Shown: positions 16,939 through 64,000, numbered from the stretch's first letter. The stretch: DNA of 64,000 nucleotides from an uncultured virus (IMG/VR IMGVR_UViG_3300017989_000061) (IMGVR_UViG_3300017989_000061); one strand, 5' to 3'. Notes: a model not told the origin generated them from the letters alone. A program made the numbers and translations.

Positions 16939-18132
16939 ATGGCTGCCGAAACCGCTGAAGCTCCTGCTGAAGAAACAGTTGTTGACACCCAACAAGCTGA
17001 CGAAACGAAGAAGCCAGCTAAGACAAGAACAAAGAAATCTGACAATCGTCCAAAGGCCAAGCAGGTCAAAATTGACCATTGGACGATTCCACTGTCAAGA
17101 ATCACAGCAGTGGATAACTGTCGGAATGAACCAGAAAATCTGTTTGCTCTTGGTTACAAGCTGGTTGATTCTTCAGACAAAGAACATTCACTGATCCACA
17201 TGGCTCTGTCAGAAGACATTGAAGTGGTTCGACAAGTTGTCAGTCTGTTTGAAACACATGAATGTGAGCCAATGGAACTGGACGTGGCAACGGTAGAGGA
17301 CGAAGATTCCAAACAGGTGACCCCACCTGCTTCATCTATTGTTGCATTTGCACGTCGTCTTGCCCGTTATGGGCAGTTCCATCCGGTAATGGTGCGTAAA
17401 GGCAATAAACTGAGTGATGGTAATTACAACTTCACTCTGTTGGCAGGAAATCGACGAACATCAGCAACTTTGTACAACCACGCAAAAAGTCGTGTTGATG
17501 TTGCGGATGAAGTTGAAGGTGCCAAAATTTATCCAGCAGAAGTCATCGCCACCAATAAACAGGTGAATGATGATGAAGGCTTCCTGATTTCAGTCGAAGA
17601 AAATCTCAGCAACAAACGATTGACTGCTCTTCAGGAAGCGGCGATCTACAAAAACTTCCGATCCAGAATCAATCCTGCTTCTGGTAAGAAGTGGACCCTA
17701 ACAGAAATTGCTGAGTATCTTTATCCCGGACAGAAGAAGAAAGGCACGGTCAGAAACCGTGAGGCTCTGCTTCGTCCTCGAAAAGAAGCAAGGATCGACG
17801 AAGAAACAGGTGAAGTCATCAAACCAGCAACTGGTCTTACAGATAAAGACCGGGCTGATTTGGAATCTGGTCGCATGACCTTAACTGCTGCTACACGAAA
17901 AGCTCTGGGTGAGCAGCATTACAGCGAATCAACTGCACGCCAATCAACTCGTGCGAAACCGATTCCGCTCAAGGAAATGCAAAAATTGTTCGACCAGACA
18001 GATGAAGACAATGCTGAATTCCGCAAAGGTGTGGCAGCCTGTATGAACATCACGTATGAACAGGCTTGCGAAGAATCCGAAAAAAGGATTCAGGCGGAAG
18101 AAGCGAAAACTCTTCGGGTTCGTAAGAAATAA
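16939..18132 (+). CDS. ParB/Srx N-terminal domain protein with HTH
   Basis: GQFHPVMVR...LLAGNRR...SVEENL..KRLTALQEA, then TLTEIAEYL; GGAG RBS before 16939. Confidence 0.75.
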   Translation: MAAETAEAPAEETVVDTQQADETKKPAKTRTKKSDNRPKAKQVKIDHWTIPLSRITAVDNCRNEPENLFALGYKLVDSSDKEHSLIHMALSEDIEVVRQVVSLFETHECEPMELDVATVEDEDSKQVTPPASSIVAFARRLARYGQFHPVMVRKGNKLSDGNYNFTLLAGNRRTSATLYNHAKSRVDVADEVEGAKIYPAEVIATNKQVNDDEGFLISVEENLSNKRLTALQEAAIYKNFRSRINPASGKKWTLTEIAEYLYPGQKKKGTVRNREALLRPRKEARIDEETGEVIKPATGLTDKDRADLESGRMTLTAATRKALGEQHYSESTARQSTRAKPIPLKEMQKLFDQTDEDNAEFRKGVAACMNITYEQACEESEKRIQAEEAKTLRVRKK

Positions 18133-18147
18133 AGGGAACGTCACCCC

Positions 18148-18190
18148 GAGAAAAAGTCGTCTACTGGGAAACTGGTTGGCGGCTTTTTCT
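18148..18190 (+). terminator. probable intrinsic terminator
   Basis: AGAAAAAGTCGTC/GGCGGCTTTTTCT stem after the ParB-like gene. Confidence 0.6.
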
Positions 18191-18318
18191 ATTTGGTGCA
18201 AAAGAGGACACCCTGTAAATCGACTCGAAGACAGTTTTCTATGAATGTGGTGATCCATGTGAACATGGCCAGCGTTTGTCATGTCAGACACCCATCAAGA
18301 AAATAACTTCCGTAATCG

Positions 18319-19212
18319 ATGAAAGGGAATCTCCTCATGATTGGGTGTATTAAACCTCGTACTCTCTCAGAAGAAGAAGAACAGAAATATTCTTCAATTA
18401 TGGCTGACGCACAGCCAATTATTCGTGCGGCGGCAGAAAAAGAATTTGACACCGAAAATCCCTCTATCAAAGAGTTTCGGCGTAGATATCACAATGGAAC
18501 TCTTCAGACTTTGACAGATTACGTCAAACAGACGATGGACTCTGTCAAAGAAATTGAGTATCCTGTCCTTCAGGGTTATTGTCGCCTTGTGCCCGGTATT
18601 GTTCTGCCTTTCTACAAAGCACACAGATTACGTCATCGTGCTGTCGATATTGAAGATTTCATTCAAGAGGGGATTTGGGCAATCTCCGATTCGATGTTTG
18701 CCTATAGCGGCAATGCGAAATTTGATACATATTCCTGTAATGCCATTCGGAATCGAATGATCGATTACATTCGCACTGATCATTTCCTTTCAAGCGTCAA
18801 AAAACGAATTCTTCGTATGCTCCCAGATCTGCGAGACCTTATGTCTAAAGGTCTTTCTTTTGAGCAGGCCGCAAATAAACTGGAGATCAATGATTCTGAT
18901 CGTGAAGAATGCTTTTCAGCGTTAGCCGTGGCAGTTGATGGGCCAGAGGTAGCTTGGGAAGATTTTGTATCAAGTTACAGTTACAGCAGTTTCGATGGCG
19001 AAGTGACCATGGAAATCGATCAGGTCCGAGCTGTGATTGAAGAAGTCGGTTTGTCAGAACTGGAGCGTGATGTTCTTTATACTGTTCTGGGTGGCGGCAA
19101 AAAATCAGAAGTATCCAAGAAGCATTCTGTGAGCCGCATGGCATCAACTTACGCCTATGATCGAGCACTGAAAAAAGTGAAAGACGTGTTTGCTAAGGAG
19201 AAAGTGGCCTAA
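18319..19212 (+). CDS. sigma-70 family RNA polymerase sigma factor (group 3/4-like)
   Basis: Region 2 EDFIQEGIWAI...KFDTYSCNAIRNRMIDYIR; region 4 LSELERDVL...SEVSKK..VSR. Confidence 0.85.
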   Translation: MKGNLLMIGCIKPRTLSEEEEQKYSSIMADAQPIIRAAAEKEFDTENPSIKEFRRRYHNGTLQTLTDYVKQTMDSVKEIEYPVLQGYCRLVPGIVLPFYKAHRLRHRAVDIEDFIQEGIWAISDSMFAYSGNAKFDTYSCNAIRNRMIDYIRTDHFLSSVKKRILRMLPDLRDLMSKGLSFEQAANKLEINDSDREECFSALAVAVDGPEVAWEDFVSSYSYSSFDGEVTMEIDQVRAVIEEVGLSELERDVLYTVLGGGKKSEVSKKHSVSRMASTYAYDRALKKVKDVFAKEKVA

Positions 19213-19274
19213 ATCTATAGTTGACACCCATCAAAGTCGTAACAAGAAAGTTTCAACGACAGAAAGGGATGTTA

Positions 19275-20429
19275 ATGAAAAAATATGCTAAGCAGCTTCA
19301 AATTCAGTTCTTCAATCCGGGCGGCTTTCCAGATAGGCCAACTGATGAAGAAATCCGTGAAGCCTTGGCTCATCCAAAATGTCCACTCAACAAAGTAATT
19401 GTGAGTAAGGAAAATGAGGGTAATATGAGCACCCTCAAGACATTTGCATTCAACGCATTTGGTCTTCCGAATCACAGTTGTCGTGGGATGTCATTTGCAA
19501 TTTATGCGACATCTGGCCAAGGTAAGACTTTTATTGTTCGGCAGTTTGCCGAAACTATTGGTATTCCGTTTGTCTTTGTACAGGCGGATGCTCTTTCCAG
19601 CACCTACAACTTGTTTCAATTGATCTGTGAAACCTTTGCTAAGAAGGGCATCAAGATCGTTGAAGTTGCCAAAGATGAGTATCAGATTCCTCCGTGTATT
19701 CTGTTCTTTGATGAGGCACATGCTTTAAGTAAATCACTCATGCAGGGTGGTCTTCTGAACGGCATGGAGTATGGTGACGGTTGGATGAAGATCACGACCG
19801 GCACAGGAAAGAAAACTAGAACTTTCAAAGTGGACTGCCGAGAAATTTGTTGGGTCGGTGCTACCACTGAGGAAGGTAAGTTGTTCGATGCTTTCGCACA
19901 GCGATTGGGTACAACTTTGAGATGGCAACCTGCTGGTAAGAAAGAGATCGCTCAGATCATCAAGCTTAATTACCCGCACTTCTCCGAAGAAGCGTGTAAC
20001 GCAGTTGCCAAATATCGAATTGTTCCTCGTTTGGCGAAGGATTTCGCTCGACTTATGGAGATGACTAAAAATCAGCACGGCAATGATTGGCAGACTGCTG
20101 CCAGAATCGTTGCTGACAATCTGGGACTTGATGAGTTCGGCATGGACCGTCGAGAAGTCAAGATTCTTGAAGCATTGGGCAGTCGTCCAATCTCCAAGGA
20201 TAATCTCCAAAGAGTGGCAAACTGTAAGGCAGAGGCGTTAGAGCGTGTGATTCTGCCTCCATTGATGTCTGTTGCAGGCAATGGTCCGTATGTTGTATCT
20301 ACCAGTCGTGGTATCACACTAACAAGAGCGGGGCTTGCCGAACTGGATCGACGTGGCATTGAACATGCCGGTGATCAGGTGACAGCAGAATATATGGATG
20401 AGCGGCGATACGCCAAACATTCTGCATGA
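19275..20429 (+). CDS. ruvB: RuvB-like AAA+ ATPase (divergent)
   Basis: GQGKT, LFFDEAHAL, VGATT..GKL, GLDEFGMD..EVKIL, TSRG..LT..G winged helix; start uncertain. Confidence 0.7.
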   Translation: MKKYAKQLQIQFFNPGGFPDRPTDEEIREALAHPKCPLNKVIVSKENEGNMSTLKTFAFNAFGLPNHSCRGMSFAIYATSGQGKTFIVRQFAETIGIPFVFVQADALSSTYNLFQLICETFAKKGIKIVEVAKDEYQIPPCILFFDEAHALSKSLMQGGLLNGMEYGDGWMKITTGTGKKTRTFKVDCREICWVGATTEEGKLFDAFAQRLGTTLRWQPAGKKEIAQIIKLNYPHFSEEACNAVAKYRIVPRLAKDFARLMEMTKNQHGNDWQTAARIVADNLGLDEFGMDRREVKILEALGSRPISKDNLQRVANCKAEALERVILPPLMSVAGNGPYVVSTSRGITLTRAGLAELDRRGIEHAGDQVTAEYMDERRYAKHSA

Positions 20430-20432: not shown

Positions 20433-20461
20433 AAGGGGCAGGGAAACCTGCCCCTTCTTTT
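20433..20461 (+). terminator. intrinsic terminator
   Basis: AAGGGGCAGG-GAAA-CCTGCCCCTT followed by CTTTT. Confidence 0.85.
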
Positions 20462-20514
20462 AGGACACCCAATGAAATCGAAGTAAATTGGCGAATGCCT
20501 TTAGGAGTGCTGGA

Positions 20515-21167: not shown

Positions 21168-21548
21168 ATGAACACATACGAACTCAGCGTTGAGGCTGTG
21201 CATCAAACAGATATGGGGCTTCGTGGGAGATCATTTGATCAGCTCTACGCCACAAATTCTGATGAATTGAATGATGTGGTCATGGACGCTCTGAGATACA
21301 TTAAAAGATTGATGCTGTGTATCGGAGAACCCTATGATATTTTGTATGTCGGATCAATTAAGATTCATCCATATGTCATAGGTTCAATTGATGAGGAAGG
21401 TCATTGTTCCACAGTGTATGGAATGTGTATCTTTGAGTGGAAACATGACACCGGATGTTACAAAAGCGTCAACGAACAAGTGTTGACACTGCTTGAAGAA
21501 ATCAAGGCATTAGGTCCAGATGATTGGAAAAGGATTGAAAATGAGTAA
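21168..21548 (+). CDS. hypothetical protein
   Basis: co-directional ORF. Confidence 0.7.
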   Translation: MNTYELSVEAVHQTDMGLRGRSFDQLYATNSDELNDVVMDALRYIKRLMLCIGEPYDILYVGSIKIHPYVIGSIDEEGHCSTVYGMCIFEWKHDTGCYKSVNEQVLTLLEEIKALGPDDWKRIENE

Positions 21549-23043
21549 GAATTGGTTTACGGCACACAAAGATGGTCTTCGTATGGTCGCCAAGCGACTC
21601 GTTGAAAGACGTTCTTTTGGGATCATCGGGGCAGAACTTTATCAAAACGTCATGGACACAGAGGCAACTGAATGTCATATCAAGGTGGCGATAATCCCCG
21701 GAAAGCCATTGATTGAAATCAGCGTCATTGACAATGGTCCGGGTTACACTGATCTGTCTCATGCTTGGACAGTCTATGCTCCATCTGAGAAGAAAGATGA
21801 TCCTACTAAAGCTGGTCGGTTCAATGTCGGCTGTAAGATGGCTCTGGCTTTCTGCAAAGAAGCTCGTGTTCACACAACAAGCGGCACAGTTGAATTCAAT
21901 GATGAAGGGCGACATGAATACCCTCGTCGGAAGCGAGACAATGGAACAGAGTTCTGGGCACTCATGGAATGTACTCGTCAGCAGTACACTGAACTTATTG
22001 AGTACATGAACAAAATCATTGTTCGTCCCGGTCTAAAACTGTTTGTTAATGGTGATGAAATCAAAGGCAGAAAGCCAATTCACACTTTTGAGCAAACTCT
22101 TTTCACTGAGATCGGTGAAGATCTTCGTACATCTGCACGAAAGTGTGAAATTCAGATTTTTGATGTTCTTCCTGATGAGGTGCCGAGTCTCTATGAATTG
22201 GGTATTCCGGTTGTAGAAACTGGGGATAAATGGCATTACAGCATTCAGCAGAAAGTTCCTCTGAATGTAGATCGTGACAATGTGACCCCTTCTTATCTTA
22301 AAGCTGTTCGTACTCATGTGCTCAATGAAATGCATGAAAAAATTGAACAGGATGATACCACTGAAGCTTGGGTCAATGAAGCGTCCAGTGATGAACGGTG
22401 TTCAGATGAGGCCACACATTCGTTTATGACTAAACGGTTTGGGCCTAAGAGGGTATCGATTGACCCAACTAACCCGGATGCAAACGGTGCAGCCATTACG
22501 GCTGGATACAATATGATTTCGTCACATGGACTGACAAAAGGTCAGCGAGCTAATGCCAAGATGGCAGGTGCCCTTTTCAGCAGTTCTCAGGCTTTTCCCA
22601 TGGAGGGCAAAGGAGCGTACAGTGATGACCCAAATGCAACCCCAGTGGAAGTGATCCCAAGGGAAAAGTGGACACCTGCTATGGGTTTAATCGAGGAATA
22701 CACTCGATGGTTGGGTTCAGAATTGCTGGACCATGGTATCATTGTTCGGTTTGTGATGTGTCATAGTTTTGTTGGCAGATCATGGATTGCCTGTTATGGC
22801 GATAATGTGCTGGACTACAACAAGTTCACCATGGGCAACAAGTTCTTTGAAGAAGGCTTCACGCCTCGTCTTGACGGGCTTATTATTCATGAGCTTGCAC
22901 ATGACAAGGTGAAAAATCATGCAACAGATGATTTTCACGAGGAGTGTTGCTCTCTGGGAGCTAAGCTCAAGCGTCTGGCACTCGACCAACCAGAGAAATT
23001 CCATGGTTTCGCATCAAGATTTGAAAGAAGGAACAACATATGA
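21541..23043 (+). CDS. GHKL (HATPase_c) ATPase fused to a C-terminal HExxH metallopeptidase-like domain
   Basis: ELYQNVMD, DNGPG, GRFNVGCK, GT boxes; IIHELAHD...H...F. Confidence 0.8.
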   Translation: MSKNWFTAHKDGLRMVAKRLVERRSFGIIGAELYQNVMDTEATECHIKVAIIPGKPLIEISVIDNGPGYTDLSHAWTVYAPSEKKDDPTKAGRFNVGCKMALAFCKEARVHTTSGTVEFNDEGRHEYPRRKRDNGTEFWALMECTRQQYTELIEYMNKIIVRPGLKLFVNGDEIKGRKPIHTFEQTLFTEIGEDLRTSARKCEIQIFDVLPDEVPSLYELGIPVVETGDKWHYSIQQKVPLNVDRDNVTPSYLKAVRTHVLNEMHEKIEQDDTTEAWVNEASSDERCSDEATHSFMTKRFGPKRVSIDPTNPDANGAAITAGYNMISSHGLTKGQRANAKMAGALFSSSQAFPMEGKGAYSDDPNATPVEVIPREKWTPAMGLIEEYTRWLGSELLDHGIIVRFVMCHSFVGRSWIACYGDNVLDYNKFTMGNKFFEEGFTPRLDGLIIHELAHDKVKNHATDDFHEECCSLGAKLKRLALDQPEKFHGFASRFERRNNI

Positions 23044-25191: not shown

Positions 25192-25222
25192 TGCTTTACA
25201 ATCAAAACCACTATCGTAGAAT
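25192..25222 (+). promoter_or_regulatory. conserved sigma70-type promoter, copy 5
   Basis: GC-TTTACA(25195)-16 nt-TAGAAT. Confidence 0.75.
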
Positions 25223-31224: not shown

Positions 31225-31310
31225 CTTTTGGTTGTAAAGCCGATAAGTTGGCTGACTGAAGCATAAATAGGGTCATGTGCGATGGATTGGAACTTTGCCC
31301 ATCGCATCAG

Positions 31311-31342
31311 AGGCCCGGCGTCAAAACCGGGCCTTATTTTTT
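31311..31342 (+). terminator. intrinsic terminator
   Basis: AGGCCCGG/CCGGGCCT stem followed by TATTTTTT. Confidence 0.75.
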
Positions 31343-31376
31343 GGTGAACAACTTCCTTTGGATAAGGAGATCACAA

Positions 31377-49041: not shown

Positions 49042-49093
49042 TGACACCCATCTAACAAACATCGAATCACTTTTATCAAAAGGATAAATTAAC

Positions 49094-52530: not shown

Positions 52531-52565
52531 TTTCTTGACACCCTTCTACCTTTGGAGAAGTAAAA

Positions 52566-55500
52566 ATGTTTCAAATGTTTGAACCGAATGAAAACCTCCC
52601 TTCAACAAGCTCAGAACATGCCTGTCACACAGATGGCGTTCGCATTCTTCCAAAAATGCAGCATGTGACAGTGGGTCTCCCGCCCGGATTCAATGGTTGC
52701 CGACTTAATGTCGTTTACCATGATGGTGAATCCAAAGGCTTGAGGATCTCTAAAAAAGTAGCTGAAGTTTTGTTGGCTCAGGGTTTTCCAGCAGAGGGAT
52801 AAATATGCAATACCAAATTGGCGATATCGTCAAAGCCACACAAAGGTTGGTCAGTGAAGACCCTAATTCTGACATGGAAGTTCCGTTGGGAACACTGGGC
52901 GAAGTCCGAAGACGAAGCGATGTTGATTATTACAATCCTGATGTGACCTTTGTTGACGGAGACGGACCACGGGAAGGTGATCCCGATTGTTATGTGGTTT
53001 GGTGGGGTGATGTCACTTGTGACACCCACATATCTGAAATGAGACTTATCTCAAGACGGAACCCACCTGTGAGTGAAGCATGATTCAACACACAACCCGA
53101 ATTAAATACAACGACGGACGAACTGAATCGGTCTATTATCTTCTTGAAGAAGATCGATTCAGATTTGTGCTTGACTACAACAACTGGCACAAGCCGAAGG
53201 ACGGAGAACCGCTTTATCAAGCAATACTCAGAGTCTGGTCAGAGATTTGTAAGACAACTTGGCCCGATAAACCAGAGTTTTGGCCATCCGAAATTCAACC
53301 AGCCGAAAATGCCGAAACATGAACACCAGAGATCTAACGCCAGAAGAACGTGAGACCTTAGATGAAGCATACGGCAAGTATTGTGAATCATCTAAGGAAA
53401 TCATAGATCGTGCCACTAATGCTGGTCACAGTGAACATCAGGCTCTTTTTGATGCCATTGGTGATGAATGGAATAAGTATCTTGAAGTCATGGAAGACAT
53501 GGACATCATTTCGACCGTTCATGGATATTATGTGCGGTTGAAAGACATTCCATATTCAGAGGAAGACTTCCATGCCAAAACCAATGGATGATAGAGAACT
53601 TTACATTCTGGCACTTGAAACACAGGCTCAGCTCGAAAGAGGAATGCTGTGTACCGTCCGTGAGAATTTGGCGAAGATCACGGAGGGTCTTCGTATGAAG
53701 CACATGAAAGCTACAATTCAGACACCCACTAAATCACAGTTCGCTGATCGAGATCAATGGGAAGGAAGATAATGATTACAACTCCCACAGACCAACTTTT
53801 GGATCTTGTCAACGACGGAAAATTGGACGTTGATGGATTCTCTCTCGAAGGCATTGTAGACAATGCTCGTGAGTGGATGTTTGAAGGATGGGGAATTCCA
53901 TCCCAGTCAGACATGGGTGGTGAACCCACTTTGATTGCTGCTGCTATCTTCAATGAAGCAAAAACACAGGATCAATGTGTGAAAGATGGAGATTCACACC
54001 CGGATTATCCTAAAGCACTGCGTTGGTTTGCTCATGCAATCCTCAAAGTTGATGGACATGATCCAAAGTTCACAGAACGTGTTGATGAACTGAAGAAAAA
54101 TAACCTTGCACACTGGGCCGCAATCTTGGCAGCGCTTAGTGAAGATGGAGTTATGAAATGACAACACAGACAGAATTGCCTTATAGCTTCGACCTGCTTC
54201 ACGACATTAAAACCCTTGAACAACTTCAGAGGGAATACAACGACGCAGTTGAAAAAATAAGAAGTCTGGAAGATCTCTGCAAGGATTACAAAATCCAATT
54301 GCAGACACCCAGTAGGAACGATGACGAGTTTCAACCGTTCGACCATGATGCCGCAAAGATTCAGCGTTGCAGGGTTCGACCGGGCAAGCCAGTCGAAATC
54401 AAAGTTACAGGGGACAGAGACCAGCGTGGTCCTGACAACTCTGTAATGCTTTGGGTTGATGAAGATGACAAACTTCACATCCGAACATGGAAAGCAGATC
54501 GTTGTTATCAGTTCGATAAAGTCATCGAAAATGATGGCTGCATCGAAGTTGTTGCCAAATAAAGGACACCTGAATATGTTCACAGATAGCCCGGAAATTG
54601 CCAAACGTGATCGAGTGATCACGACTCTGCACTATGAGAATGATCAGTTCCGACAGTTTTTCACGTCACCATTTGATCAATATGCAGAGCATGTTGGCAA
54701 GGCTTTTACTGTGATCAAAAAGACACAGGAATTCAAAAACGCCACTGACCACGAAGAAGGCAAAGAAGATATGTACTTGATTCGTTTTGAAGACGGTACA
54801 GAAATCGAAGCATTCGGACACGAAGTGTGCATTCTCGACTACGAAAAGTGCTACCCACTAATGAAGGACACCTAATATGTCACTGTCTGAAAACGCAACC
54901 AAAATGTTGTTTGAACTGGCACCTGTTGACTTTCAGTCATTTATCAATGATCTGAGTAATGTTGACCGTCAGAAGTTAGCAGATGAAATTGAGGGAATTG
55001 CCATTCAAGCTACTTTCGCTCACGCTTATGTGCAAGAACGACACGGTTACGGTTGCGGAGATCAGGGACACGAAGACGCTGCTAAGGCAGCAAACAAAGC
55101 ACGACGCAAAGTTCGCAACAATGTCATTGGGTACAATGAAACCCGAGACATTCCTTTCTAAGACACCCAAAGGGAAATCATGACCACACAAGCCCAAAAA
55201 GATATCGAACAGGAAATTGAGTGGTATGAGCCACGTTGGCCGATTGCCAAAGCAATGAGGGAATTGGGCGAGATTGGGTTTGAGTTTTCAGGTCATGGCG
55301 TAGGTTTTGGCGGTGAGGATTTTAACCTTTCTAGGGAATCAGACTATTACGTTAATTTCTGTGATAAAGGCAAAGGAAACGGGATAGTGGCTACTGTGTA
55401 TCCGTATCCAGATGATGACGTTGAAGACGAAGTGCTGTTTTCAGGTTCAGCAAATCAAGCTGTCTTGTTCATCAAAGACACCTGATAATTAACCTGTTGA

Positions 55501-57007: not shown

Positions 57008-57056
57008 AGACACCCGGTAAACCGGCATTCAACAACTCCCATTAAGGAAACAAACA

Positions 57057-57662
57057 ATGCCGAAGACCGACCCTGTAACTGGTTGCACTGTAATGACTCA
57101 CTTTGAGTTTATTGCCGAAGAAGCACAGCGAACCGGACAACAGCCAGAAGATTATATGGTTGATCTCTGGAATGAGATCGACGAAGACAACCGACGTATG
57201 GAACAGTCACTCAGTGAGGTTTCTGAAACCGGACCTGAACTGGTACGAATCACTGAGGAAACACACAAAGATTGGGCAGAAACAAAGCAGTGGTATGCTG
57301 ACAATACCCCGGTCATGCATCGCAAGTTTGGTCGCAATGATGCTAACGAACTGATCAGTGTTGAGTACGAAGCGACCTTTGATGATCCTGAACCACCACG
57401 CATCCGACGTGTGCTTTACATTGAGTCTGTTGAATGTCACCAAAACACACGTGAATCCAGTGATTCTATTGTCGCTGTGGTTCTGTGTCGTGACTGGAAG
57501 TGTCGTAAGGTAAAACTGGACACCTACCACGACAGTGGAACACGAATCGATCCCCCTGACTATGGAGAAGAACTGGAATGGCAGGAAGACGTGTCTACGT
57601 TACGCTCGCTGTGGACTTGGACGCTGAAGACTTTGTTCCGATCAAAGAAATCAGTCACGTAA
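57057..57662 (+). CDS. hypothetical protein
   Basis: AAGGA RBS. Confidence 0.7.
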   Translation: MPKTDPVTGCTVMTHFEFIAEEAQRTGQQPEDYMVDLWNEIDEDNRRMEQSLSEVSETGPELVRITEETHKDWAETKQWYADNTPVMHRKFGRNDANELISVEYEATFDDPEPPRIRRVLYIESVECHQNTRESSDSIVAVVLCRDWKCRKVKLDTYHDSGTRIDPPDYGEELEWQEDVSTLRSLWTWTLKTLFRSKKSVT

Positions 57663-57777
57663 CAGATGCCATAGCATCTGACCCAGAAGAAATCACTGTT
57701 TACTTTAACCCACATCTCATTTTGGATGTTGAGGTAGTGAAGGTCTCAGATGAATTTCCACACTTGAGGAAGCAACA

Positions 57778-59379
57778 ATGAGTTTTCACAAACTGCTTTC
57801 ATTTTGCATGATGCTGTTCATTGTTGCTTCTTCTATTCTGTTGGGCATTGTTCTTATTGTCTGCTTGAATTCTGAAAAAGAAAATGCCAAGTACACTTTG
57901 TCAGGGAAGCCATCCAACTGGACACAGGAACAGTGGGAGATACTGAACACCCACCTAAAACAAATCGAACACCTTGAACAAAGAATCAATCAACTCGAAG
58001 GAAACAACAATGGCAATCGCAAAACATCAACTTATCGATTGCGGAGACAACCCGAACGCTCAGCGACCGAAGCTGAATATCGAATTCGACGGGACCAGTG
58101 ATATCCTTTGGGTACTGCCTGAAGGATATGGTGATGCGACCAGTGAAGATGGTCACGGTTCTCCTCTTGGTATCGAATACTACAATGGTTCTCTGCGACT
58201 GATTGTTTACAAAGACATCAACGAACAGGAACCCCAAATCATTGATTTGGAAAAGGCAAGAGAATCGAACAGAAAGGACACCTGATGAAAAAATACATCG
58301 GAATTGCGATGATCGTTGCAATGTTTGTGACATTCTTTGTCTTCATTGCATCAGTTGGTGGGATAAAGGCTGCACTGGAAGTTTTCATTTATAGCTTCGT
58401 GGGGTGCGTTTGGTTCTTTACTGCTCTTCATTTGATTGAAAGCGGAGAAAATGGCAACAGTACAGATCCTGTCTGAATTTAATGGTGAACAAAGGCAGGT
58501 TGCCGGATATGAAGAGGTTTCCGTTTACACCGCAATTGGGTTTCTGAACCACACTGTTTCTGTTTGGTTGTTTGAAAACGAACAAAACCATCCCGATGCA
58601 CAAATGGTTGACACCACATACGAAATTAACGGCAAGACACATCATACACGAACTATCGTCTCCGTTGACAAAAAAGAAATCATTGGCCAATTTTGGTTGG
58701 AGTTTCCACAATGGTAAATCCAATTCTTACACTTGATGTTCACTTCTATGTCTCCGTTGTCGGGACAGAATGTGAAAAGGGCAACAACTCACGTGGACAC
58801 CTGATAAACGAACTGGTTAAACTGACAAGCCTCAATGAACAGGAAGCCAACCAGTTTCTCGATGCCATGATTGAGGCTGAAAAACTCGTGGATGATGGCA
58901 ACGGATGTTTCCGCTGTACCATCCCATCCTGAAAGGAAGAACAATGATTGAAATTCGTGTCACACGTCCCGAAATGTACGAAGATGGAGACTTCTCGAAA
59001 CGACAGGGACATTACTTTGAAGCAGAAACTTTTGATATTGCTCTCGACAGAGCGCTTCATTCCAAGGTGTTCAACGAAGGTGAAGTGCTGGACGTTCAAA
59101 ACAAATTCACAGGTGCTTTCATCGGGGCTTATCGACTCGTTGATGGGTCACCAAAGAAACTTCCGCATACCTACGCTTAGGAACATTATGGCAATCGTCA
59201 TCTACGTTGGCAGGAAAGCACGGTATAAAGGGAATCTTTGTACTGTGTCTGCAATTCATCAAATCAGTTTGTTACGCAACAGACCCGTTACAATCGAATT
59301 AGAGGATGGGTCGAAGGTCAAGTGTTTTGAATCCGATCTTGCACCGGATTATGATAAACAATTGATCTACAAAGATTGA
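57778..59379 (+). other. run of 7 small hypothetical genes (two with TM segments)
   Basis: Abutting + ORFs, approximate starts 57778, 58010, 58285, 58451, 58711, 58944, 59188. Confidence 0.65.
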
Positions 59380-59440
59380 GACACCCTTATAGGGTAGCAT
59401 CACTCAAGCCGATTACTAAATTCAACTACTAAGGCGAACT

Positions 59441-60040
59441 GTGACTCAATCAAATTCCGCATCTTTCGATATGTCCTCTGATATCGCCCTCACAATGAAG
59501 CCAAATCGCACCATTCAAAAACCATTCAGCGAAGTTCTGCCCGGACAAAGATTCTGGGCTGAGAACTGGGGTGACATCAAATGTCATGTCAAACTTGATG
59601 AACCAACAAACAATTTCAACGCCTGTGAGATCAGCACAGGCTGTCTGTGTGAAGTTCCCGAACACAAGAATTGTGAGGTTAGAGCTGAGATCCAAGGGGC
59701 AGTTCAGCCGTTTCGTTTCTATCTGAGCCATTCAGAGCATCCAATCATTGTTGCGGTAGAGGGGTGTGCGTTGTTTGATGTGAGTGAAAATGAAATCAAA
59801 CGACGACTCGGAGAGGCAATCAAAAACTGGAACAAACACGATCCAAGCAATGATGCTGTAGGTCTGTTTGATATCCATACTGAAATTGAAAATGAATTTG
59901 CTGACACCTCTTCACAGGTTTATACCGACCCTGAAACACTGGAATGCCACATACAAAGGCAAGGTTTCGTGAGTCTGTCCTTGGAGTGCTACCACGTTGC
60001 TGAATCTGACTGGTGCGGCAATGATAATTTGATAGGCTAA
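59441..60040 (+). CDS. hypothetical protein (N-domain shared with next gene)
   Basis: FSEVLPGQRF...HVKL...NACEISTGCLC. Confidence 0.65.
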   Translation: MTQSNSASFDMSSDIALTMKPNRTIQKPFSEVLPGQRFWAENWGDIKCHVKLDEPTNNFNACEISTGCLCEVPEHKNCEVRAEIQGAVQPFRFYLSHSEHPIIVAVEGCALFDVSENEIKRRLGEAIKNWNKHDPSNDAVGLFDIHTEIENEFADTSSQVYTDPETLECHIQRQGFVSLSLECYHVAESDWCGNDNLIG

Positions 60041-60051
60041 AGGAACACAGC

Positions 60052-60405
60052 ATGTTGACCCAAATCAAATTCGGCGACCTTGCTCCCGGTGCAAAATTCT
60101 ACATCGATGACTTGGAGCATGTGAAACTCCAAAAGAACAGTGGCAATGGAAATTGGAATGCCTGTGATATTGAAACTGGCACACTTTGCTATGTCGTCGA
60201 TCAAATCACGGTCTCAATCTGCAAAGCCACTGCTTCAGCCCATGAGCAACTGATAGCACTTGGTTGTACTTACGTGAAAGCAGAAGACCGATTCGGGGAC
60301 ACCCGAACAGGATATTGGTTTCAAGGGGATGACCCCACTCACAGAGTTTATGGAGATTTCCTCGGAGAAACAGAGGAAGCTGCCATGCAGGCAATCAAAG
60401 GATAA
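60052..60405 (+). CDS. hypothetical protein (N-domain shared with previous gene)
   Basis: FGDLAPGAKF...HVKL...NACDIETGTLC. Confidence 0.7.
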   Translation: MLTQIKFGDLAPGAKFYIDDLEHVKLQKNSGNGNWNACDIETGTLCYVVDQITVSICKATASAHEQLIALGCTYVKAEDRFGDTRTGYWFQGDDPTHRVYGDFLGETEEAAMQAIKG

Positions 60406-60410
60406 ACAAT

Positions 60411-60938
60411 ATGAACCTCAGAGATATAGACAACCTCAAAGCTGCTGGTTACGAATTTGCTCACAGCATCGACAGCGCTTCGTATGGTGCAGTTCTACTG
60501 GTAAAAACCAAGCTGGATCTTCAGGATTTAACATACGAAGAAACACGTGTCTTCAGACAGTGTACCGAAAAGGTTTTCTATGCACTGGAAGATCTGGAAT
60601 CTATTCACGACCCGGAGATTCAACAAAGAAACCAGAACGAAAAAGAACAACTTCTCGCTTGTTTTGGTGATCGTTCTATTTTCGTTCAGGACATTCCTAA
60701 CGAATACCTCAACAGACCCTTTTATCCTGTCTGGCACATTGTGACTACTGAAATCGGTCACATCAAAACAGGATGGCGAAAACGTGTCATCGTCATCGAC
60801 TGGTCACAAACCATCGTTGATAAAAAAGCTGACACCCTCTTTCCTGAAGAAGACGTAACCAAAGACGGTCAAATGATCCATGCTTGGGGTTACGATAAAG
60901 CCAAAGAGTACATCGACAAACTTCACGAAGTTGCATAG
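60411..60938 (+). CDS. hypothetical phage protein
   Basis: GWRKRVIVIDW...EDVTK...IHAWG. Confidence 0.75.
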   Translation: MNLRDIDNLKAAGYEFAHSIDSASYGAVLLVKTKLDLQDLTYEETRVFRQCTEKVFYALEDLESIHDPEIQQRNQNEKEQLLACFGDRSIFVQDIPNEYLNRPFYPVWHIVTTEIGHIKTGWRKRVIVIDWSQTIVDKKADTLFPEEDVTKDGQMIHAWGYDKAKEYIDKLHEVA

Positions 60939-60946
60939 GAGCAACC

Positions 60947-61447
60947 ATGATTGACAAAAAATCCGTTGAACAGTTCACTCATCTGATAAACAGCACCATC
61001 GAAGAAACAAAGGACATGCAGAGTCCCCTGTATTCGTTCTATTGTGTGCTGGAAAACCGACTCAACGCCGATGATGAACTGGACGTGCGAGACAAAGCAC
61101 ACTTCGCCCAAAAGCGAATTGCTGCCAGATTATTTCTTGTCTATCAACGTGCAAACTTTGTCTCACAGGATGTTATTGCTGATCATCTGATTGAAGCACG
61201 AACAGTCAATGCCACCGTTCAGCTTGGACGGGATATCGTAGACTTTGTTGAAGTCTATGCGGAAGACAATGGGCTGAACCCAGAAGAAGTGATGGCAGAG
61301 GCAATTAAGGACTGGCACGAAACCCATTCCAACCGAGAACGACGTAAGAAACAACTCAAAGGGGTGAAAACCTCATCAGAGTTGACACCCCATATCGAAG
61401 CACGAGAAACAATTCTCAAACAAAGAAACACGGGGACGGGGGAATAA
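60947..61447 (+). CDS. hypothetical protein, possible C-terminal ribbon-helix-helix
   Basis: AGGAG RBS; ATVQL..DIVDFV..YA..NG.....VMAEAI. Confidence 0.65.
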   Translation: MIDKKSVEQFTHLINSTIEETKDMQSPLYSFYCVLENRLNADDELDVRDKAHFAQKRIAARLFLVYQRANFVSQDVIADHLIEARTVNATVQLGRDIVDFVEVYAEDNGLNPEEVMAEAIKDWHETHSNRERRKKQLKGVKTSSELTPHIEARETILKQRNTGTGE

Positions 61448-61529
61448 CCAACACAATCTGTAAAAGTAAAATGATTGTGCAATAAAACGCACGGGTTATG
61501 CACCCCGTCCCGACTTACAAAGGCAACTC

Positions 61530-61883
61530 ATGCCACATATCAGAAAAGAAGAACGTTACGTCAGAGTGGCATACGATCTGATGTGCGGATACGAAAGAGC
61601 AACTGCTCTTGCTGATGATGTAAACAAAGAACTGAAGGAAGATCGTGGTTTACATTCAGCCAAAGATGATACCCGTGGATGGGATGGCGACCGTATGTCG
61701 TGCGTTGTTGTCACCTATGATACTCTCGCAGATGCTGTTCGACTCGATCCGATAGTCAGACAACTTCTGTCTCGTAAAGCTAATTTCACTTACGAACCGA
61801 TCTATGGCGAATCCTATGGTTCAACAAGAGCGTATCTAAAAGTCAATTCCTGTACTTCGTTGACACCCATCAACAGTACATAA
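61530..61883 (+). CDS. hypothetical protein
   Basis: co-directional ORF. Confidence 0.65.
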   Translation: MPHIRKEERYVRVAYDLMCGYERATALADDVNKELKEDRGLHSAKDDTRGWDGDRMSCVVVTYDTLADAVRLDPIVRQLLSRKANFTYEPIYGESYGSTRAYLKVNSCTSLTPINST

Positions 61884-61907
61884 CCAATACTTCAACAGGG
61901 GACAACA

Positions 61908-62672
61908 ATGCCGACAGCAACTCGCAAACGAATCACCAAAGGTCTGAAGTTTCATTGGCATCATGCTGATGCGAACCCATGTTGGGAAGTCAAACATTCC
62001 CGTGGACAGGGAGTCTGGATTTGCCAGATTGTTGATTGCCCGGATTATTCCGGTGTGACCCGTGCCTTCACCAGAGAAGAAATTCATCTTGCTTTGTCTT
62101 CAGAAGAATTCTGGTCAGGCAGAGCTGATGACCACGAAAGTTTCTATGCTTCTCTGAAGCCGGGACAGATTGTTCACTACAACAACGGATTCAACAACTA
62201 TGTGCGTTGTGAAGCCTTCATTGAAGATGGTGAAACAAAGTTGAAGCCGATTGCTCTTGTCGGTCAGTGGAGAGAGTACGATCTCCCACGACGAAACGTC
62301 GATGGTTCAATCTCTTATAACTACTACCCGGCAATGGTACTCGGTGAAAAGTTTGGCAGCGATAACGTCAAAACCTCATTCACTCCGAACTACTCAAACA
62401 TTTATGAGGCAAAGCCAAGGGTGGGGGATATCGACCCGACAGACCTTGAACCTATCGATCTGTCAGTTCCTCCGATGACCGATGAACAGAAGTCTATCGC
62501 TGCTAAATGGCAGAAGGTAGCAGCGGTCAGTCGGGCAATTGAAGAAGGGCAGCGGGCAAGAGGAAAGGAAAACAATCCTCAGAAGATTCTCGATGCCATC
62601 GAAACTCTGATGAAAAAGAACCCCAAAGAATATCTCAGGCTGTTCACCACACTATCGGGGACACCTGTATAA
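61908..62672 (+). CDS. hypothetical phage protein
   Basis: 254 aa; GQIVHYNNGFNNYVRC. Confidence 0.75.
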   Translation: MPTATRKRITKGLKFHWHHADANPCWEVKHSRGQGVWICQIVDCPDYSGVTRAFTREEIHLALSSEEFWSGRADDHESFYASLKPGQIVHYNNGFNNYVRCEAFIEDGETKLKPIALVGQWREYDLPRRNVDGSISYNYYPAMVLGEKFGSDNVKTSFTPNYSNIYEAKPRVGDIDPTDLEPIDLSVPPMTDEQKSIAAKWQKVAAVSRAIEEGQRARGKENNPQKILDAIETLMKKNPKEYLRLFTTLSGTPV

Positions 62673-62677
62673 AAGCC

Positions 62678-62959
62678 ATGACAACTTCATCTGAACAAAA
62701 TATGACTCCCGAACAACGTGCTATGCCAAAGCACGTTCAACAGGAAGCATACAAAAGAATCCCAATGACCTGCGATCTGGTCAGACAGATTCTGGACGAA
62801 GCAATAGTCACATTGATGGACGATCTGGATATTGATCCTGCTGATGTGGCAACCGTTGATGTGGCTATGTCTCATGCTTTTCAACGTATTCGGGATGAAG
62901 TTACACAACCCTTCCGAACAGAACAAATGAGGTTGTTATGTCCAAAGGATACACCGTAA
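62678..62959 (+). CDS. hypothetical protein
   Basis: co-directional ORF. Confidence 0.6.
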   Translation: MTTSSEQNMTPEQRAMPKHVQQEAYKRIPMTCDLVRQILDEAIVTLMDDLDIDPADVATVDVAMSHAFQRIRDEVTQPFRTEQMRLLCPKDTP

Positions 62960-63128
62960 TCAGTGAAGCCGACGATCATATCATCGTTGGAATGAGTTTC
63001 GCACACTTCAACAAAAATTGCGAACCCTCAATTACCTACAACGGCAGATAATACAAGTGGGGACCACTGGAAATCTGCCCAATCAATTTCTGTTCCGCAC
63101 GTCGCTACAATCTGGAAAGCTGAAATCA

Positions 63129-63332
63129 ATGACATACAGAGAACTTCAGGCTGAAATGGCTAACTGGACCGATGAGCAACTGGATTCCGATGTGACCATT
63201 GAGATGCTCTGTGATCACGGCGACAATGAATGTTTTGCCGCTGAGTTGAGAATCGCTGGTGAAGATCATCCATCACTGGATGAAGATCACCCTGTACTGC
63301 TGGAATCGTCTTTTGACGACACCCAGTCATAA
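63129..63332 (+). CDS. hypothetical protein
   Basis: MTYREL...EQLDSDVT...LDEDHPVL. Confidence 0.65.
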   Translation: MTYRELQAEMANWTDEQLDSDVTIEMLCDHGDNECFAAELRIAGEDHPSLDEDHPVLLESSFDDTQS

Positions 63333-63448
63333 AGAAACAAGTCCCCTGATTGGATGCAGGTAGCCAACCATAGTGCTGGTAAACGCCGTATGCACGTGGA
63401 GGAGTGCCAGAACAATCAGGGGCAATTCTTTCAACAAAGGGGAAAATA

Positions 63449-64000
63449 ATGACGAACATCCGAATCACAATCAGTCCTGATCTCGATGCAGAACATCTGA
63501 ACCCTGCGAGTTATGACTGTGAATGGAAACCAATTAGCTTTTCTTCAAAGTTCATCAACTATGAAGATCCCGAAAACTACCTCAAGTTTGAAAACGGCAA
63601 GATCGTTCCTGCCACCGAAGAACTGAAGGAAAAGTTTGAGCAGGGATTCGCTTTCCTGCTCGACTATTACGAACACGGTTTGGGAATGTGGTCAATTCAT
63701 GGAACTGGTCCTAGTAGCACATGGGATAATACCAGTTGTGCTGGCATTTTGCTCTGGAACCACAAAGCTGAGGACATGGGTGCCAAGACACCCGATGAAC
63801 GAGAAAAGGACGCAAAACGCTTCCTCGAACGATACACTGACTGGTGCAATGGCACTTGTCATTACTTTGAAATCCACAAAATTACAGACTGTGAACATTG
63901 TGGACAAGAAATCAAAGAAACAATCGAAACAGACTACTCAAGGCAAGGTCACGTCGGAGACGACATCGAAGACGCTATCCGACAGGACTTGTTTGGAGTG
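63449..64000 (+). CDS. hypothetical protein, truncated by window end
   Basis: ORF from ATG 63449 (MTNIRITISPD) with GGGG RBS; appears open to the edge. Confidence 0.6.
   Translation, partial: MTNIRITISPDLDAEHLNPASYDCEWKPISFSSKFINYEDPENYLKFENGKIVPATEELKEKFEQGFAFLLDYYEHGLGMWSIHGTGPSSTWDNTSCAGILLWNHKAEDMGAKTPDEREKDAKRFLERYTDWCNGTCHYFEIHKITDCEHCGQEIKETIETDYSRQGHVGDDIEDAIRQDLFGV

What the first reader, a model, noticed from the sequence alone, without database searches (positions are those of the whole stretch)
16984..63793. Strand-polarised GACACC(C/T) heptamer seeded at about one copy per gene, with a steep positional gradient
Seen: by eye I count about 46 GACACCC (e.g. 16984, 19223, 20464, 21157, 30380, 38015, 42050, 46094, 46282, 46588, 49043, 52537, 55162, 57009, 59380, 61862, 63787) and 21 GACACCT on the + strand. 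I noticed no GGGTGTC, i.e. no - strand copy. A base-composition estimate (~42% GC) predicts only about 2 GACACCC per strand. Only 3 GACACCY sites lie in the first 16.9 kb, against about 39 in 42.0-63.8 kb (mean gap ~570 bp, few very short gaps). The motif falls in all three reading frames (D-T-x, T-P, H-P) and between genes, so it is a nucleic-acid signal and not a peptide motif. Inference: an uncharacterised orientation-dependent cis-signal marks the small-gene region. It could be analogous to Chi or KOPS (recombination, translocation), a coat site for a phage DNA-binding protein during entry or segregation, or an mRNA site for antitermination or processing. The conserved promoter is seen only left of 25.3 kb, where the motif is sparse.
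Basis: partly seen in the sequence, partly recalled or inferred. Interest (0 to 1): 0.9.

Follow-up and report, generated by a model that had tools for sequence, protein, structure and literature searches.

The report
Strand-locked promoter-like motif in jumbo phage
A short DNA word sits about once per gene, always on the coding strand, along an 80-kb run of small unknown genes in a giant T4-like phage, and it most likely marks the start signals read by the phage's own sigma factor.

Summary
The window has 80 GACACC on + and 0 on -. The whole 234.6-kb phage record has 195 against 5. Synonymous-codon shuffles give 27.6±4.3 sense copies in the block's genes against 113 observed, and 9.2±2.8 antisense against 0.

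The motif is confined to one co-directional, about 80-kb block of ORFan genes. It is spaced more evenly than Poisson, enriched at stop codons, and lies 28-43 nt before many downstream start codons. A 459-kb relative carries a homologous T(G/A)ATACCAACTAG (59:0) with the same rising density, rising GC and abrupt stop. Three other loci found through a phage sigma-factor homologue carry further variants flanking that gene.

My best reading (about 0.5) is a single-element, -10-like promoter core read by the phage sigma-70-family protein. It would form regulatory cassettes like the PeSL promoter/stem-loop cassettes of T4-type phages, but without a host-type -35/-10 promoter. No transcript data exist, so an RNA-processing site remains the main rival. 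Chi/KOPS-like, primase and codon explanations fit poorly. I rate it a new variant of a known kind.

The parts
16984..63793 (+). The part of the motif array that lies in the window: 76 of the window's 80 GACACC copies (65 of 68 GACACCY), all on +. The array continues past the window's right end for a further 31 kb, to record G000:C1 about 128,750.
18319..19212 (+). Phage sigma-70-family protein (297-aa ORF; the catalogued product of 291 aa starts at 18337). Candidate reader of the motif.
   Evidence: Pfam Sigma70_r2 30.7 bits against a cut-off of 24. PHROG 351 'RNA polymerase sigma factor' 2e-14 over residues 67-295. A profile of 5 homologues hits RpoD/SigA/FliA chains across regions 2-4, best 1.4e-7. 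P0001.
18207..18218 (+). Motif copy GACACCCTGTAA, 112 nt upstream of the sigma ORF.
18287..18298 (+). Motif copy GACACCCATCAA, 32 nt upstream of the sigma ORF start (38 nt of leader to the ATG at 18337). Homologous arrangements occur in L246, L247 and L249.
19223..19234 (+). Motif copy directly after the sigma stop codon, at the start of the next gene (an AAA+ ATPase).
16830..16859 (+). Host-type (sigma-70-like) promoter GCTTTACA-N16-TAGAAT, upstream of the gene preceding sigma. It would give the first sigma expression. Sister copies lie at 1847-1877, 7205-7235, 10369-10399 and 25193-25222.
20434..20475 (+). GC-rich hairpin plus T-run (terminator-like, -20.7 kcal/mol) followed immediately by GACACCCAATGA. 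This is one of the few terminator-then-motif junctions in this phage.
49043..49054 (+). Representative gene-boundary copy: stop TGA, one base, then GACACCCATCTAAC, a leader, an SD and ATG at 49094.
55162..55173 (+). Representative copy starting on the base after stop TAA, with the SD and ATG (55180) directly downstream.
57009..57020 (+). Representative copy one base after stop TAA: GACACCCGGTAAAC, a leader, then ATG at 57057.
59380..59391 (+). Representative copy on the base after stop TGA (ORF 58948-59379). The next ORF starts at 59441.

Best explanation
GACACC(C/T), with the extended form GACACC-C-A-n-T-A-A(C), is the core of a phage-specific transcription start signal. I read it as a single-element, -10-like promoter recognised on double-stranded DNA by host RNA polymerase carrying the phage's own sigma-70-family protein (window 18319-19212).

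Proposed sequence of events. Host-type promoters (window 1.8-25.2 kb) fire first and make the sigma. The sigma then drives about 180 motif copies spread along an 80-kb, one-directional hyperplastic block of ORFan genes. These copies include two in front of its own gene. Transcripts would start just 3' of the 12-nt element, giving leaders of about 30-40 nt.

Each copy together with its leader (and, in the 459-kb relative, a GC-rich hairpin) forms a repeated intergenic regulatory cassette. This is functionally analogous to the PeSL cassettes of T4-type phages.

What is shown: the motif statistics, its anatomy, its restriction to this block, its homologues in relatives, the sigma homology, and the genomic linkage of motif and sigma. 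What is inferred: that it is a promoter, that the sigma reads it, and where the start site lies.
For: 1. Recognition at DNA level. The reverse complement is absent from the block (0 against 9.2±2.8 in synonymous shuffles; 0 against 16.3 by Markov). Outside the block both orientations are depleted (sense 12 against 23.8±4.4; antisense 8 against 17.8±4.0). This is what one expects if stray copies fire in either direction.

2. Position. 65 of 179 copies lie at ORF ends against 22.4±4.4 for random positions. 57 of 128 ORFs have a copy 5-120 nt upstream against about 29 expected. Intragenic copies pile up in the last tenth of genes. At 21 of the 47 ORF-end copies that have an SD-preceded start within 200 nt (65 ORF-end copies in all), the distance from motif end to that ATG is 28-43 nt.

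3. Intragenic copies keep the extension where coding allows. For example, GACACCCATCAA occurs 6 times in place of ...TAA.

4. Host-type promoters are almost absent where the motif is dense. My TT[TG]AC-N16-18-TAnRAT pattern gives 7 + strand hits up to 46 kb (reverse-complement coordinates of the record) and one (93.9 kb) in the remaining 60 kb of the block. A generic sigma-70 scan of the densest 11.5 kb finds 7 against 9.5±3.0 expected.

5. Linkage to a sigma factor. All five loci that hold a homologue (this phage; G001 at 29% identity; L246 at 57%; L247 at 47%; L249 at 22%) carry a GAYACC-type motif on the sigma strand. Copies lie just upstream of the sigma gene or its operon in all five, and right after its stop in this phage, L246, L247 and L249. 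The extension differs by lineage: CAC-TAA, CAA-TAG, GCA-TAG, AAC-TAG and CGC-TTG.

6. In phage 7-11, which has a phiEco32-type sigma, the sigma gene is described as transcribed from both host-type and phage-specific promoters (PMC4331800, passages read). This locus has the same layout.

7. GAYACC shares the A at position 2, and in G001 the T and A at positions 3-4, with the recalled TATAAT -10 hexamer. No upstream -35 partner exists.

8. In G001, 30 of 85 copies are followed by a strong hairpin whose base pairs AACTAG with CTAGTT, followed by a T/C-rich tract. A start just after the motif would drop the 5' AACTAG. That would separate the stem from the U-tract, so own transcripts could pass a structure that stops upstream ones. 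This last step is inference.
Against: No transcript 5' ends are available (one search listed no RNA run), so promoter activity is untested.

The sigma has a region-4-like part, yet no -35 element is seen.

In several copies the SD begins within 0-5 nt of the motif end. Examples are window 55162, L246:3643, L249:13391 and G001:328814. Leaders there would be extremely short.

In G001 a terminator-like hairpin lies downstream of the putative start. This is awkward unless my read-through argument holds.

The sigma-bearing loci were found by searching with sigma, so the co-occurrence is linkage, not an independent association. The 9 related fragments without a polarised motif are 20-48% complete and may simply miss the block. 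Sigma itself was searched in only 4 of them.

In G001 the variation at motif positions 1 and 12 stays within stop codons: TGA or TAA at the start, TAG or TAA at the end. That hints at a coding-level constraint as well.

In this phage, terminators directly upstream of the motif are not enriched (9 of 179 against 7.2 expected). The need for a promoter at every gene is therefore not demonstrated.

The phage strips many restriction palindromes from its genome. Antisense avoidance could therefore have a restriction-related cause.
Confidence: 0.5

Rival explanations
1. RNA-level signal. The block is transcribed as long polycistronic RNA. GACACC(C/U)… is the recognition or cleavage site of a host or phage endoribonuclease, or of an RNA-binding protein. 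Cleavage would cut the RNA into gene-sized mRNAs with defined leaders (in G001 with a 5'-terminal hairpin). Alternatively it would mark early messages for timed decay, as the T4 RegB nuclease does at GGAG (recalled).
For: The motif is always in mRNA sense. It sits at gene boundaries just after or overlapping stop codons and ahead of the leader and SD. In G001 the hairpin begins exactly at the motif's 3' edge. A tmRNA-like gene ends 4 nt before a copy. The phage carries many RNA-handling genes: CsrA, a Nudt16-like Nudix, a poly(A)/CCA polymerase head domain, 2'-5' ligase-like proteins and an RNA-repair HAD domain. This reading has no difficulty with an SD that abuts the motif.
Against: The non-transcribed orientation should be neutral for an RNA signal. 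Yet the reverse complement is absent from the block and depleted elsewhere. 114 of 179 copies are not at ORF ends, so most would lie inside reading frames and cleavage there would destroy messages. Where a strong terminator directly precedes the motif (window 20464; L246:965 and 3643; L247:1151), little RNA would carry the site. No nuclease candidate was identified.
Confidence: 0.2
2. Recombination joint. The motif (plus the hairpin in G001) is chiefly a shared linker at which ORFan cassettes are swapped, duplicated or captured. This could work by homologous recombination between cassettes, as proposed for PeSLs, or by an unknown site-specific enzyme, as in integrons. Any regulatory role would be secondary.
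For: The block is the hyperplastic part of the genome. Only 4 of 139 ORFs between 50 and 120 kb (reverse-complement coordinates) have a homologue in G001, against 17 of 76 and 55 of 84 in the flanks, which are syntenic. In G001, cassettes of 42-79 nt recur at 85-98% identity between non-adjacent genes. The motif carries stop codons in two frames, which would close any incoming ORF. GC3 climbs along the block in both phages: 0.35 to 0.50 here and 0.30 to 0.53 in G001.
Against: In this phage only 6-12 nt are shared, too little for homologous recombination. No tyrosine recombinase was found in the Pfam scans. Those scans covered all 199 ORFs of 140 aa or more and 31 of the 156 shorter ones. The only recombinases seen are a serine resolvase and a TnpB far from the block. 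Most copies here lie inside genes. Motif quality does not decay along the block (extension score 2.7, 2.5, 2.4 and 2.9 of 5). The 99.87%-identical sister contig shows no cassette-sized indel over 20 kb.
Confidence: 0.12
3. Another strand-specific DNA signal: sites for a phage nicking enzyme (nicks confined to one strand, as recalled for T5 and some Pseudomonas phages), primase start sites, a Chi/KOPS-type polarity signal, or one-orientation sites that evade a Type III or Type ISP restriction enzyme (as recalled for CAGCAG in T7).
For: Polarity is near total (195:5) and the opposite orientation is avoided. The complement GGGTGTC ends in GTC, the T7-type primase trinucleotide (recalled). A conserved HNH endonuclease gene (window 14648-15313, 57% identical in G001) and a Toprim protein are present. 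The genome shows heavy restriction-site avoidance.
Against: The signal is restricted to one block of a record of at least 234 kb. The other 150 kb holds 16 + and 5 - copies, so it cannot serve genome-wide replication, recombination or translocation. The coupling to stop codons and to start-codon distance is unexplained. In G001 the complement ends in ATC, so the primase trinucleotide is not conserved. Five opposite-strand copies exist, which would defeat Type III evasion. Over-representation is not needed for evasion. The core is conserved in phages of 33-49% GC, presumably with different hosts.
Confidence: 0.08
4. A by-product of amino-acid or codon usage (Asp-Thr, Thr-Pro or His-Pro dipeptides), or of a paralogous gene family.
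For: Frame 1 (GAC ACC) is the commonest frame (64 of 117 copies inside my ORF calls).
Against: Synonymous shuffles that keep every protein and each gene's codon set give 27.6±4.3 against 113. All frames and intergenic DNA are used. The genes are unrelated ORFans. The motif is homologous in relatives whose genes differ.
Confidence: 0.01

Closest known systems
PeSL (promoter-early stem-loop) cassettes of T4-type phages (Arbiol et al. 2010, PMC2839356; Comeau et al. 2014, PMC4122927; abstracts and passages read)
   Same: The host is a T4-like myovirus. The elements are repeated intergenic cassettes between small ORFan genes in a hyperplastic region. [quoted passage not shown] In the 459-kb relative they carry a G-run/C-run stem-loop of the kind described for PeSLs. 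Cassette sequence differs between phage lineages.
   Different: PeSLs contain a near-consensus host sigma-70 promoter (-35, N17, -10) with the stem-loop between or over the boxes. Here there is one 6-13-nt element with no -35 partner. In this phage there is usually no stem-loop. There are about 180 copies, more than half of them not at ORF ends, with a density and GC ramp and total strand polarity. The phage has its own sigma factor.
Single-element promoters of phage-encoded sigma factors (T4 gp55 late promoters, recalled; the phiEco32 / 7-11 sigma, PMC4331800, passages read)
   Same: A phage sigma-70-family protein. A short conserved element of about 10 bp in sense orientation upstream of genes. 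The sigma gene is served by both host-type and phage-type signals. Host-type promoters are confined to the early end.
   Different: The sequence is unrelated to the recalled T4 octamer, which occurs only twice in this record. The copy number is roughly ten times higher. Copies are dense inside genes. The targets are an ORFan block rather than replication or structural genes. The sigma has no homologue among 50,697 deposited phage records by tblastn at E ≤ 1e-3.
Orientation-biased restriction sites (CAGCAG/EcoP15I in T7) and Chi/KOPS polarity motifs (recalled)
   Same: Near-absolute single-strand polarity of a short asymmetric word.
   Different: Those signals are genome-wide and indifferent to gene boundaries. 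This one is regional, tied to gene boundaries, four- to twelve-fold over-represented, and has lineage-specific extensions.
Integron attC sites
   Same: A one-directional array of small promoter-poor cassettes, each with a repeated element at its 3' end. In G001 that element folds into a hairpin.
   Different: No integrase gene was found. The element in this phage is too short and not palindromic. Most copies lie inside genes.

Membership tests
PeSL cassettes (T4-type phages) | Intergenic, between small ORFan genes of a hyperplastic region in a T4-like genome | tested here: met
   T4-type Gp23, Gp20, S77 protease, terminase and gp25. The block shares 4 of 139 ORFs with G001 while its flanks are syntenic. 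Boundary enrichment is 65 of 179 against 22.4.
PeSL cassettes (T4-type phages) | Contains a sigma-70-type promoter (-35, about 17 nt, -10) | tested here: not met
   No conserved positions upstream of the motif and none at -10 distance downstream. In G001 the ATG follows within 17-24 nt in 11 of 38 cases (and within 9-10 nt in 2 more), leaving no room. A generic scan is not enriched.
PeSL cassettes (T4-type phages) | Stable stem-loop acting as terminator or attenuator | tested here: inconclusive
   G001: 30 of 85 copies are followed by a hairpin of -20 kcal/mol or stronger. This phage: hairpin plus T-run directly upstream in 9 of 179 against 7.2 expected. Function was not tested.
PeSL cassettes (T4-type phages) | Mediates recombination, indels or mini-circles | not testable with these tools
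   The only close relative available is 99.87% identical and has no cassette-sized indel.
Promoters of a phage-encoded sigma factor | The phage encodes a sigma-70-family protein | tested here: met
Promoters of a phage-encoded sigma factor | Conserved element in sense orientation upstream of genes, including the sigma gene itself | tested here: met
Promoters of a phage-encoded sigma factor | Transcripts start a few nt downstream, and the holoenzyme binds and melts the element | not testable with these tools
   No RNA run was listed.
T7-type single-subunit RNA polymerase promoters | The phage encodes a T7-like RNA polymerase | tested here: inconclusive
   PF00940 found nothing in G000, G001 (91% complete), G003 or G004. 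The tool's control genomes did not ring either.
Chi / KOPS-type polarity signals | Distributed genome-wide with orientation following replication or translocation direction | tested here: not met
   179 of 195 copies lie in one 81-kb block. Other + and - blocks lack it.
Type III restriction evasion by site orientation | All sites in one orientation, with no need for excess or fixed position | tested here: inconclusive
   195:5. However, five inverse sites exist, and the excess and gene-boundary coupling need another cause.
Integron attC | Adjacent tyrosine-recombinase integrase and imperfect palindromic sites of 57-141 bp | tested here: not met
   No integrase in the Pfam scans, which covered all 199 ORFs of 140 aa or more and 31 of the 156 shorter ones. 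The element here is 6-13 nt.
RegB-type endoribonuclease target | Sense-strand RNA motif with no constraint on the opposite DNA strand | tested here: inconclusive
   The sense restriction is met. Opposite-strand avoidance is not expected for this family. Cleavage cannot be tested.

The most novel reading that the evidence does not exclude
The block is a directional gene-accretion array, a phage counterpart of an integron. ORFan cassettes, each closed by the motif (with its two-frame stops and, in G001, a hairpin), are added at the distal end. The ramps in GC3 (0.30 to 0.53 in G001) and in motif density would then record cassette age or origin, with the motif serving as both joint and promoter. 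Against this, motif quality does not decay along the block and no recombinase was found. Only the GC ramp, the ORFan turnover and the cassette homogenisation speak for it.
Probability: 0.1. Interest if true: 0.85.

Novelty: new variant of a known kind. Interest (0 to 1): 0.6.

Why it matters
If the reading holds, one uncultivated clade of 230-460-kb T4-like phages runs a regulon of about 100-200 promoters through its own sigma factor. The promoter word is short, and it can be read directly from metagenomic sequence. That would give a cheap way to delimit the host-takeover (early/middle) gene set of giant phages, most of which are ORFans and likely hold anti-defence functions. It would also add a sigma/promoter pair that may be orthogonal to host promoters, of possible use in synthetic biology. 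Finally, it would extend the PeSL idea of mobile regulatory cassettes beyond host-type promoters. The parallel GC ramp in two distant relatives is unexplained and deserves its own study.

Tried and rejected
Expression data: no RNA holder was listed for window 52001-62000.

Deposited phages: megablast of window 42-62 kb and tblastn of the sigma protein both gave no match.

Relatives by sigma in viral contigs: none, with the single protein or with the 2-sequence alignment.

Exact 14-mer scans of viral contigs. GACACCCACTAACA returned one multi-copy contig, which is 99.87% identical to this phage. The rest were single chance hits. Five of these looked polarised but turned out to be Thr/Pro-repeat genes or high-GC DNA. 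TGACACCCGCTTGA returned only single hits in the rows shown.

Ten MCP relatives (80-88% identity). None shows polarised GACACC. G003 (79:39), G004 (41:19, partly a tandem repeat) and G007 (5:19) show mild asymmetries that I did not follow up. GAYACCNANTAR is frequent only in G001 (65:2).

Other checks:
- T7-like RNA polymerase: not found, but the control was silent.
- Rfam: only a tmRNA hit.
- Recalled T4 late-promoter octamer: 2 copies in the record.
- Bipartite promoter with the motif as -35: rejected, because there is no -10 and the ATG is too close.
- Terminator directly upstream of the motif in this phage: not enriched.
- Motif-quality gradient: absent.
- Earlier findings: none for this genome.

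I considered a primase reading and dropped it because the GTC is not conserved in G001.

Full report
WHAT THE WINDOW IS. The window is the reverse strand of positions 159,933-223,932 of a 234,631-bp virus record, rated about 44% complete. Pfam scans show a T4-type myovirus: Gp23 major capsid protein, Gp20 portal (with an intein), S77 prohead protease, T4-type terminase, and gp25 and V baseplate proteins. Many auxiliary genes are also present. Below, 'RC coordinates' are those of the reverse complement of the record. Window position equals RC position minus 10,699.

GACACC occurs 80 times on + and never on - in the window. GACACCC is 46:0 and GACACCT is 22:0. In the whole record the counts are 195:5 for GACACC and 118:0 for GACACCC. 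Dinucleotide shuffles of the window give 29.2±5.7 on both strands together. Shuffling synonymous codons within each of the block's 128 + strand ORFs keeps every protein and each gene's codon set. It gives 27.6±4.3 sense copies against 113 observed, and 9.2±2.8 antisense copies against 0, with no shuffle of 500 reaching 0. Among all hexamers in the block, GACACC is the most enriched and GGTGTC is among the most depleted.

WHERE IT IS. 179 of the 195 copies lie between RC 25 and 106 kb. This is one co-directional block of mostly small + strand genes. Density climbs from about 4 to 20 per 5 kb and then stops at RC 105.9 kb, where genes become convergent. Other + strand blocks (RC 130-155 and 180-205 kb) and the - strand blocks have almost none in either orientation. 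The motif therefore follows neither 'the coding strand' nor 'a genome strand' in general; it belongs to this block. GC rises along the block from 0.44 to 0.49, and GC3 from about 0.41 to 0.50, then falls back.

ANATOMY. Outside the hexamer, position 7 is C (113) or T (41). Positions 10-12 lean to T-A-A and position 19 to A. Upstream positions carry almost no information. In the densest part a fuller cassette is visible: a stop codon, then GACACCC-A-n-TAAC, then a CA-rich leader (…CATCAACAAC…), then GGGGAGAGA and ATG. Copies are spaced far more evenly than Poisson (CV 0.36-0.49). 65 of 179 lie at an ORF end against 22.4±4.4 for random positions. The stop is either just before the motif, overlapping it (cTGACACC), or inside the extension (GACACCTGA, GACACCCnnTAA). 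57 of 128 ORFs have a copy 5-120 nt upstream, against about 29 expected. At 21 of the 47 ORF-end copies that have an SD-preceded start within 200 nt (65 ORF-end copies in all), that ATG is 28-43 nt from the motif end. The other 114 copies are not at ORF ends, so most lie inside reading frames. These are skewed to the last tenth of the gene, and they keep near-consensus extensions that avoid an in-frame stop, such as …CATCAA.

RELATIVES. Proteins related to the capsid protein are common in IMG/VR. Ten large related contigs do not share a polarised GACACC. One of them, G001 (458,813 bp, 91% complete), encodes a 29%-identical homologue of a sigma-like protein of the window. A blind scan of G001 for strand-asymmetric k-mers found T(G/A)ATACCAACTAG: GATACCAACTAG is 59:0 and ACCAACTAG is 85:0.

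This motif aligns base for base with GACACCCACTAA and behaves the same way:
- The first copy sits upstream of the operon that holds the sigma homologue.
- Density climbs over about 80 kb, from 4 to 26 per 10 kb.
- GC climbs from 0.36 to 0.53 (GC3 from 0.30 to 0.53).
- Everything stops at about 359 kb.
- 59 of 85 copies are at ORF ends, with the stop codon built into the motif.
- 30 of 85 are followed by a strong GC-rich hairpin whose base pairs AACTAG with CTAGTT, followed by a T/C-rich tract.
- Whole cassettes of 42-79 nt recur at up to 98% identity between non-adjacent genes.

Homologues of the sigma protein are rare: 4 in 5.8 billion proteins. A profile search of JGI metagenome contigs returned three further loci with near-full-length matches. 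All three carry variants on the sigma strand, flanking the sigma gene. L246 has GACACCCAATAG, L247 has GACACC(GCA/ATC)TAG, and L249 has TGACACCCGCTTGA, ten times in 14.5 kb. The GAYACC core is thus kept while sigma diverges to 22% identity, and the following six bases are lineage-specific.

THE BLOCK IS THE HYPERPLASTIC REGION. Between this phage and G001 the flanks are syntenic, but only 4 of 139 ORFs between RC 50 and 120 kb have a homologue. Pfam and PHROG searches find almost nothing in those genes.

THE OTHER PROMOTER CLASS. A host-type promoter (GCTTTACA, about 16 nt, TAGAAT) occurs at window 1847, 7205, 10369, 16830 and 25193. It also occurs on the opposite strand in the convergent arm, but only once more inside the block. 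The copy at 16830 lies upstream of the gene before sigma. Two motif copies (18207 and 18287) lie just before sigma, and one (19223) lies just after it.

INTERPRETATION. The signal is read as nucleic acid. It acts in one orientation relative to genes. It is wanted at about one copy per gene in one temporal or functional block, and it is selected against elsewhere and in the opposite orientation. That last property argues for recognition on DNA rather than on RNA. Together with the fixed leader distance, the lack of host-type promoters in the block, the linked sigma-70-family gene, and the autoregulatory layout described for 7-11/phiEco32-type phages (PMC4331800, passages read), I read it as a single-element, -10-like promoter for the phage sigma. 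GAYACC would occupy -12 to -7 and the lineage-specific six bases the discriminator, with the start at about motif position 13-14.

The cassette architecture is closest to the PeSL promoter/stem-loop cassettes that Krisch and colleagues described in the hyperplastic regions of T4-type phages (PMC2839356 and PMC4122927; abstracts and passages read). It fails the defining feature of a host-type bipartite promoter, however, so I call it a variant and not a member.

In G001 the hairpin downstream of the motif looks at first to contradict a promoter. But a transcript that starts after CTAG lacks the AACUAG that extends the stem to the U-tract. The structure could therefore stop incoming transcripts and let its own pass. 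This is inference only.

WEAK POINTS. There are no transcript data. No -35 partner is seen although the sigma has a region-4-like part. Some copies abut the SD. The link to sigma is genomic linkage in loci that were found through sigma. In G001 the variation at motif positions 1 and 12 stays within stop codons, which suggests that closing the upstream frame is itself selected. The phage also strips many restriction palindromes from its genome, so avoidance of GGTGTC might have a restriction-related cause. For these reasons an RNA-processing site (0.2), a recombination joint (0.12) and other DNA signals (0.08) remain open. A codon artefact is excluded.

UNEXPLAINED. The parallel GC and GC3 ramp along the block in two distant relatives, ending at the same point as the motif, has no explanation. 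Motif quality does not change along the block, so a simple age gradient is not supported.

VERDICT. The feature is real and highly non-random. It is most likely a phage-sigma promoter/regulatory cassette system of a hyperplastic ORFan block: a new variant of a known kind, and testable by 5'-end mapping or in vitro transcription.

Noticed in passing
whole record G000 (window included): Extreme avoidance of restriction-type palindromes. CCWGG occurs 0 times against about 268 expected. CAGCTG, CGATCG, GTCGAC, CTGCAG, GACGTC, GGATCC, GAGCTC, CTCGAG, TCTAGA and CCCGGG each occur 0 times in 234.6 kb (21-72 expected). GCGC is 27 against 463, CTAG 116 against 868 and TATA 321 against 1629. TTCGAA is absent from the motif block but not from the rest of the record.
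   Followed up: partly
L017:14421-14560 (-), which is RC 100,072-100,211, outside the window: A 140-nt tmRNA-like gene inside the motif block (Rfam RF00023, 53.7 bits; ARAGORN tag peptide DNEKRPMFRSCLG*). It ends 4 nt before a motif copy.
   Followed up: no
RC 25-106 kb of G000; G001:280-360 kb: GC and GC3 rise steadily along the ORFan block (GC3 0.35 to 0.50 here and 0.30 to 0.53 in G001) and drop at its end, in step with motif density.
   Followed up: partly
window 31275-31553 (+): A phage-encoded CsrA homologue (Pfam CsrA 2.9e-22; PHROG 9500), conserved in G001. Many SDs in the dense part of the block are GGGGAGAGA, which contains the GGA that CsrA proteins bind (recalled).
   Followed up: no
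window 3493-5145, 6375-6923, 925-1518: A PARP-catalytic/WGR protein, a Nudt16-like Nudix (decapping-type) hydrolase and a DenV-type pyrimidine-dimer glycosylase, in the part driven by host-type promoters.
   Followed up: no
window 19221-20429 and 21520-23043: An AAA+ (RuvB_N-like) ATPase and a 507-aa HATPase_c protein are linked to the sigma gene in both this phage and G001, though in a different order.
   Followed up: no
L011:16804-19329 (-), L013:8676-10802 (-), L010:16337-17443 (-): Inteins in the portal protein and in a Volactin (actin-like) protein. An IS605-type TnpB/Cas12f-like gene lies next to a serine resolvase.
   Followed up: no
window 3552 and 3558: The window differs from the laid genome record at two bases.
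   Followed up: no
G004:C1:8398-8893 and 13405-13720; G003: G004 has GACACC inside a tandem repeat of about 61 bp. G003 shows a mild GACACC asymmetry (79:39 against controls of 54:58).
   Followed up: no
L069, L090 (unrelated viral contigs): Long Thr/Pro-rich repeat genes (ACACC-type codon repeats) give strongly one-stranded GACACC counts. This is a false-positive class for searches with this motif.
   Followed up: yes
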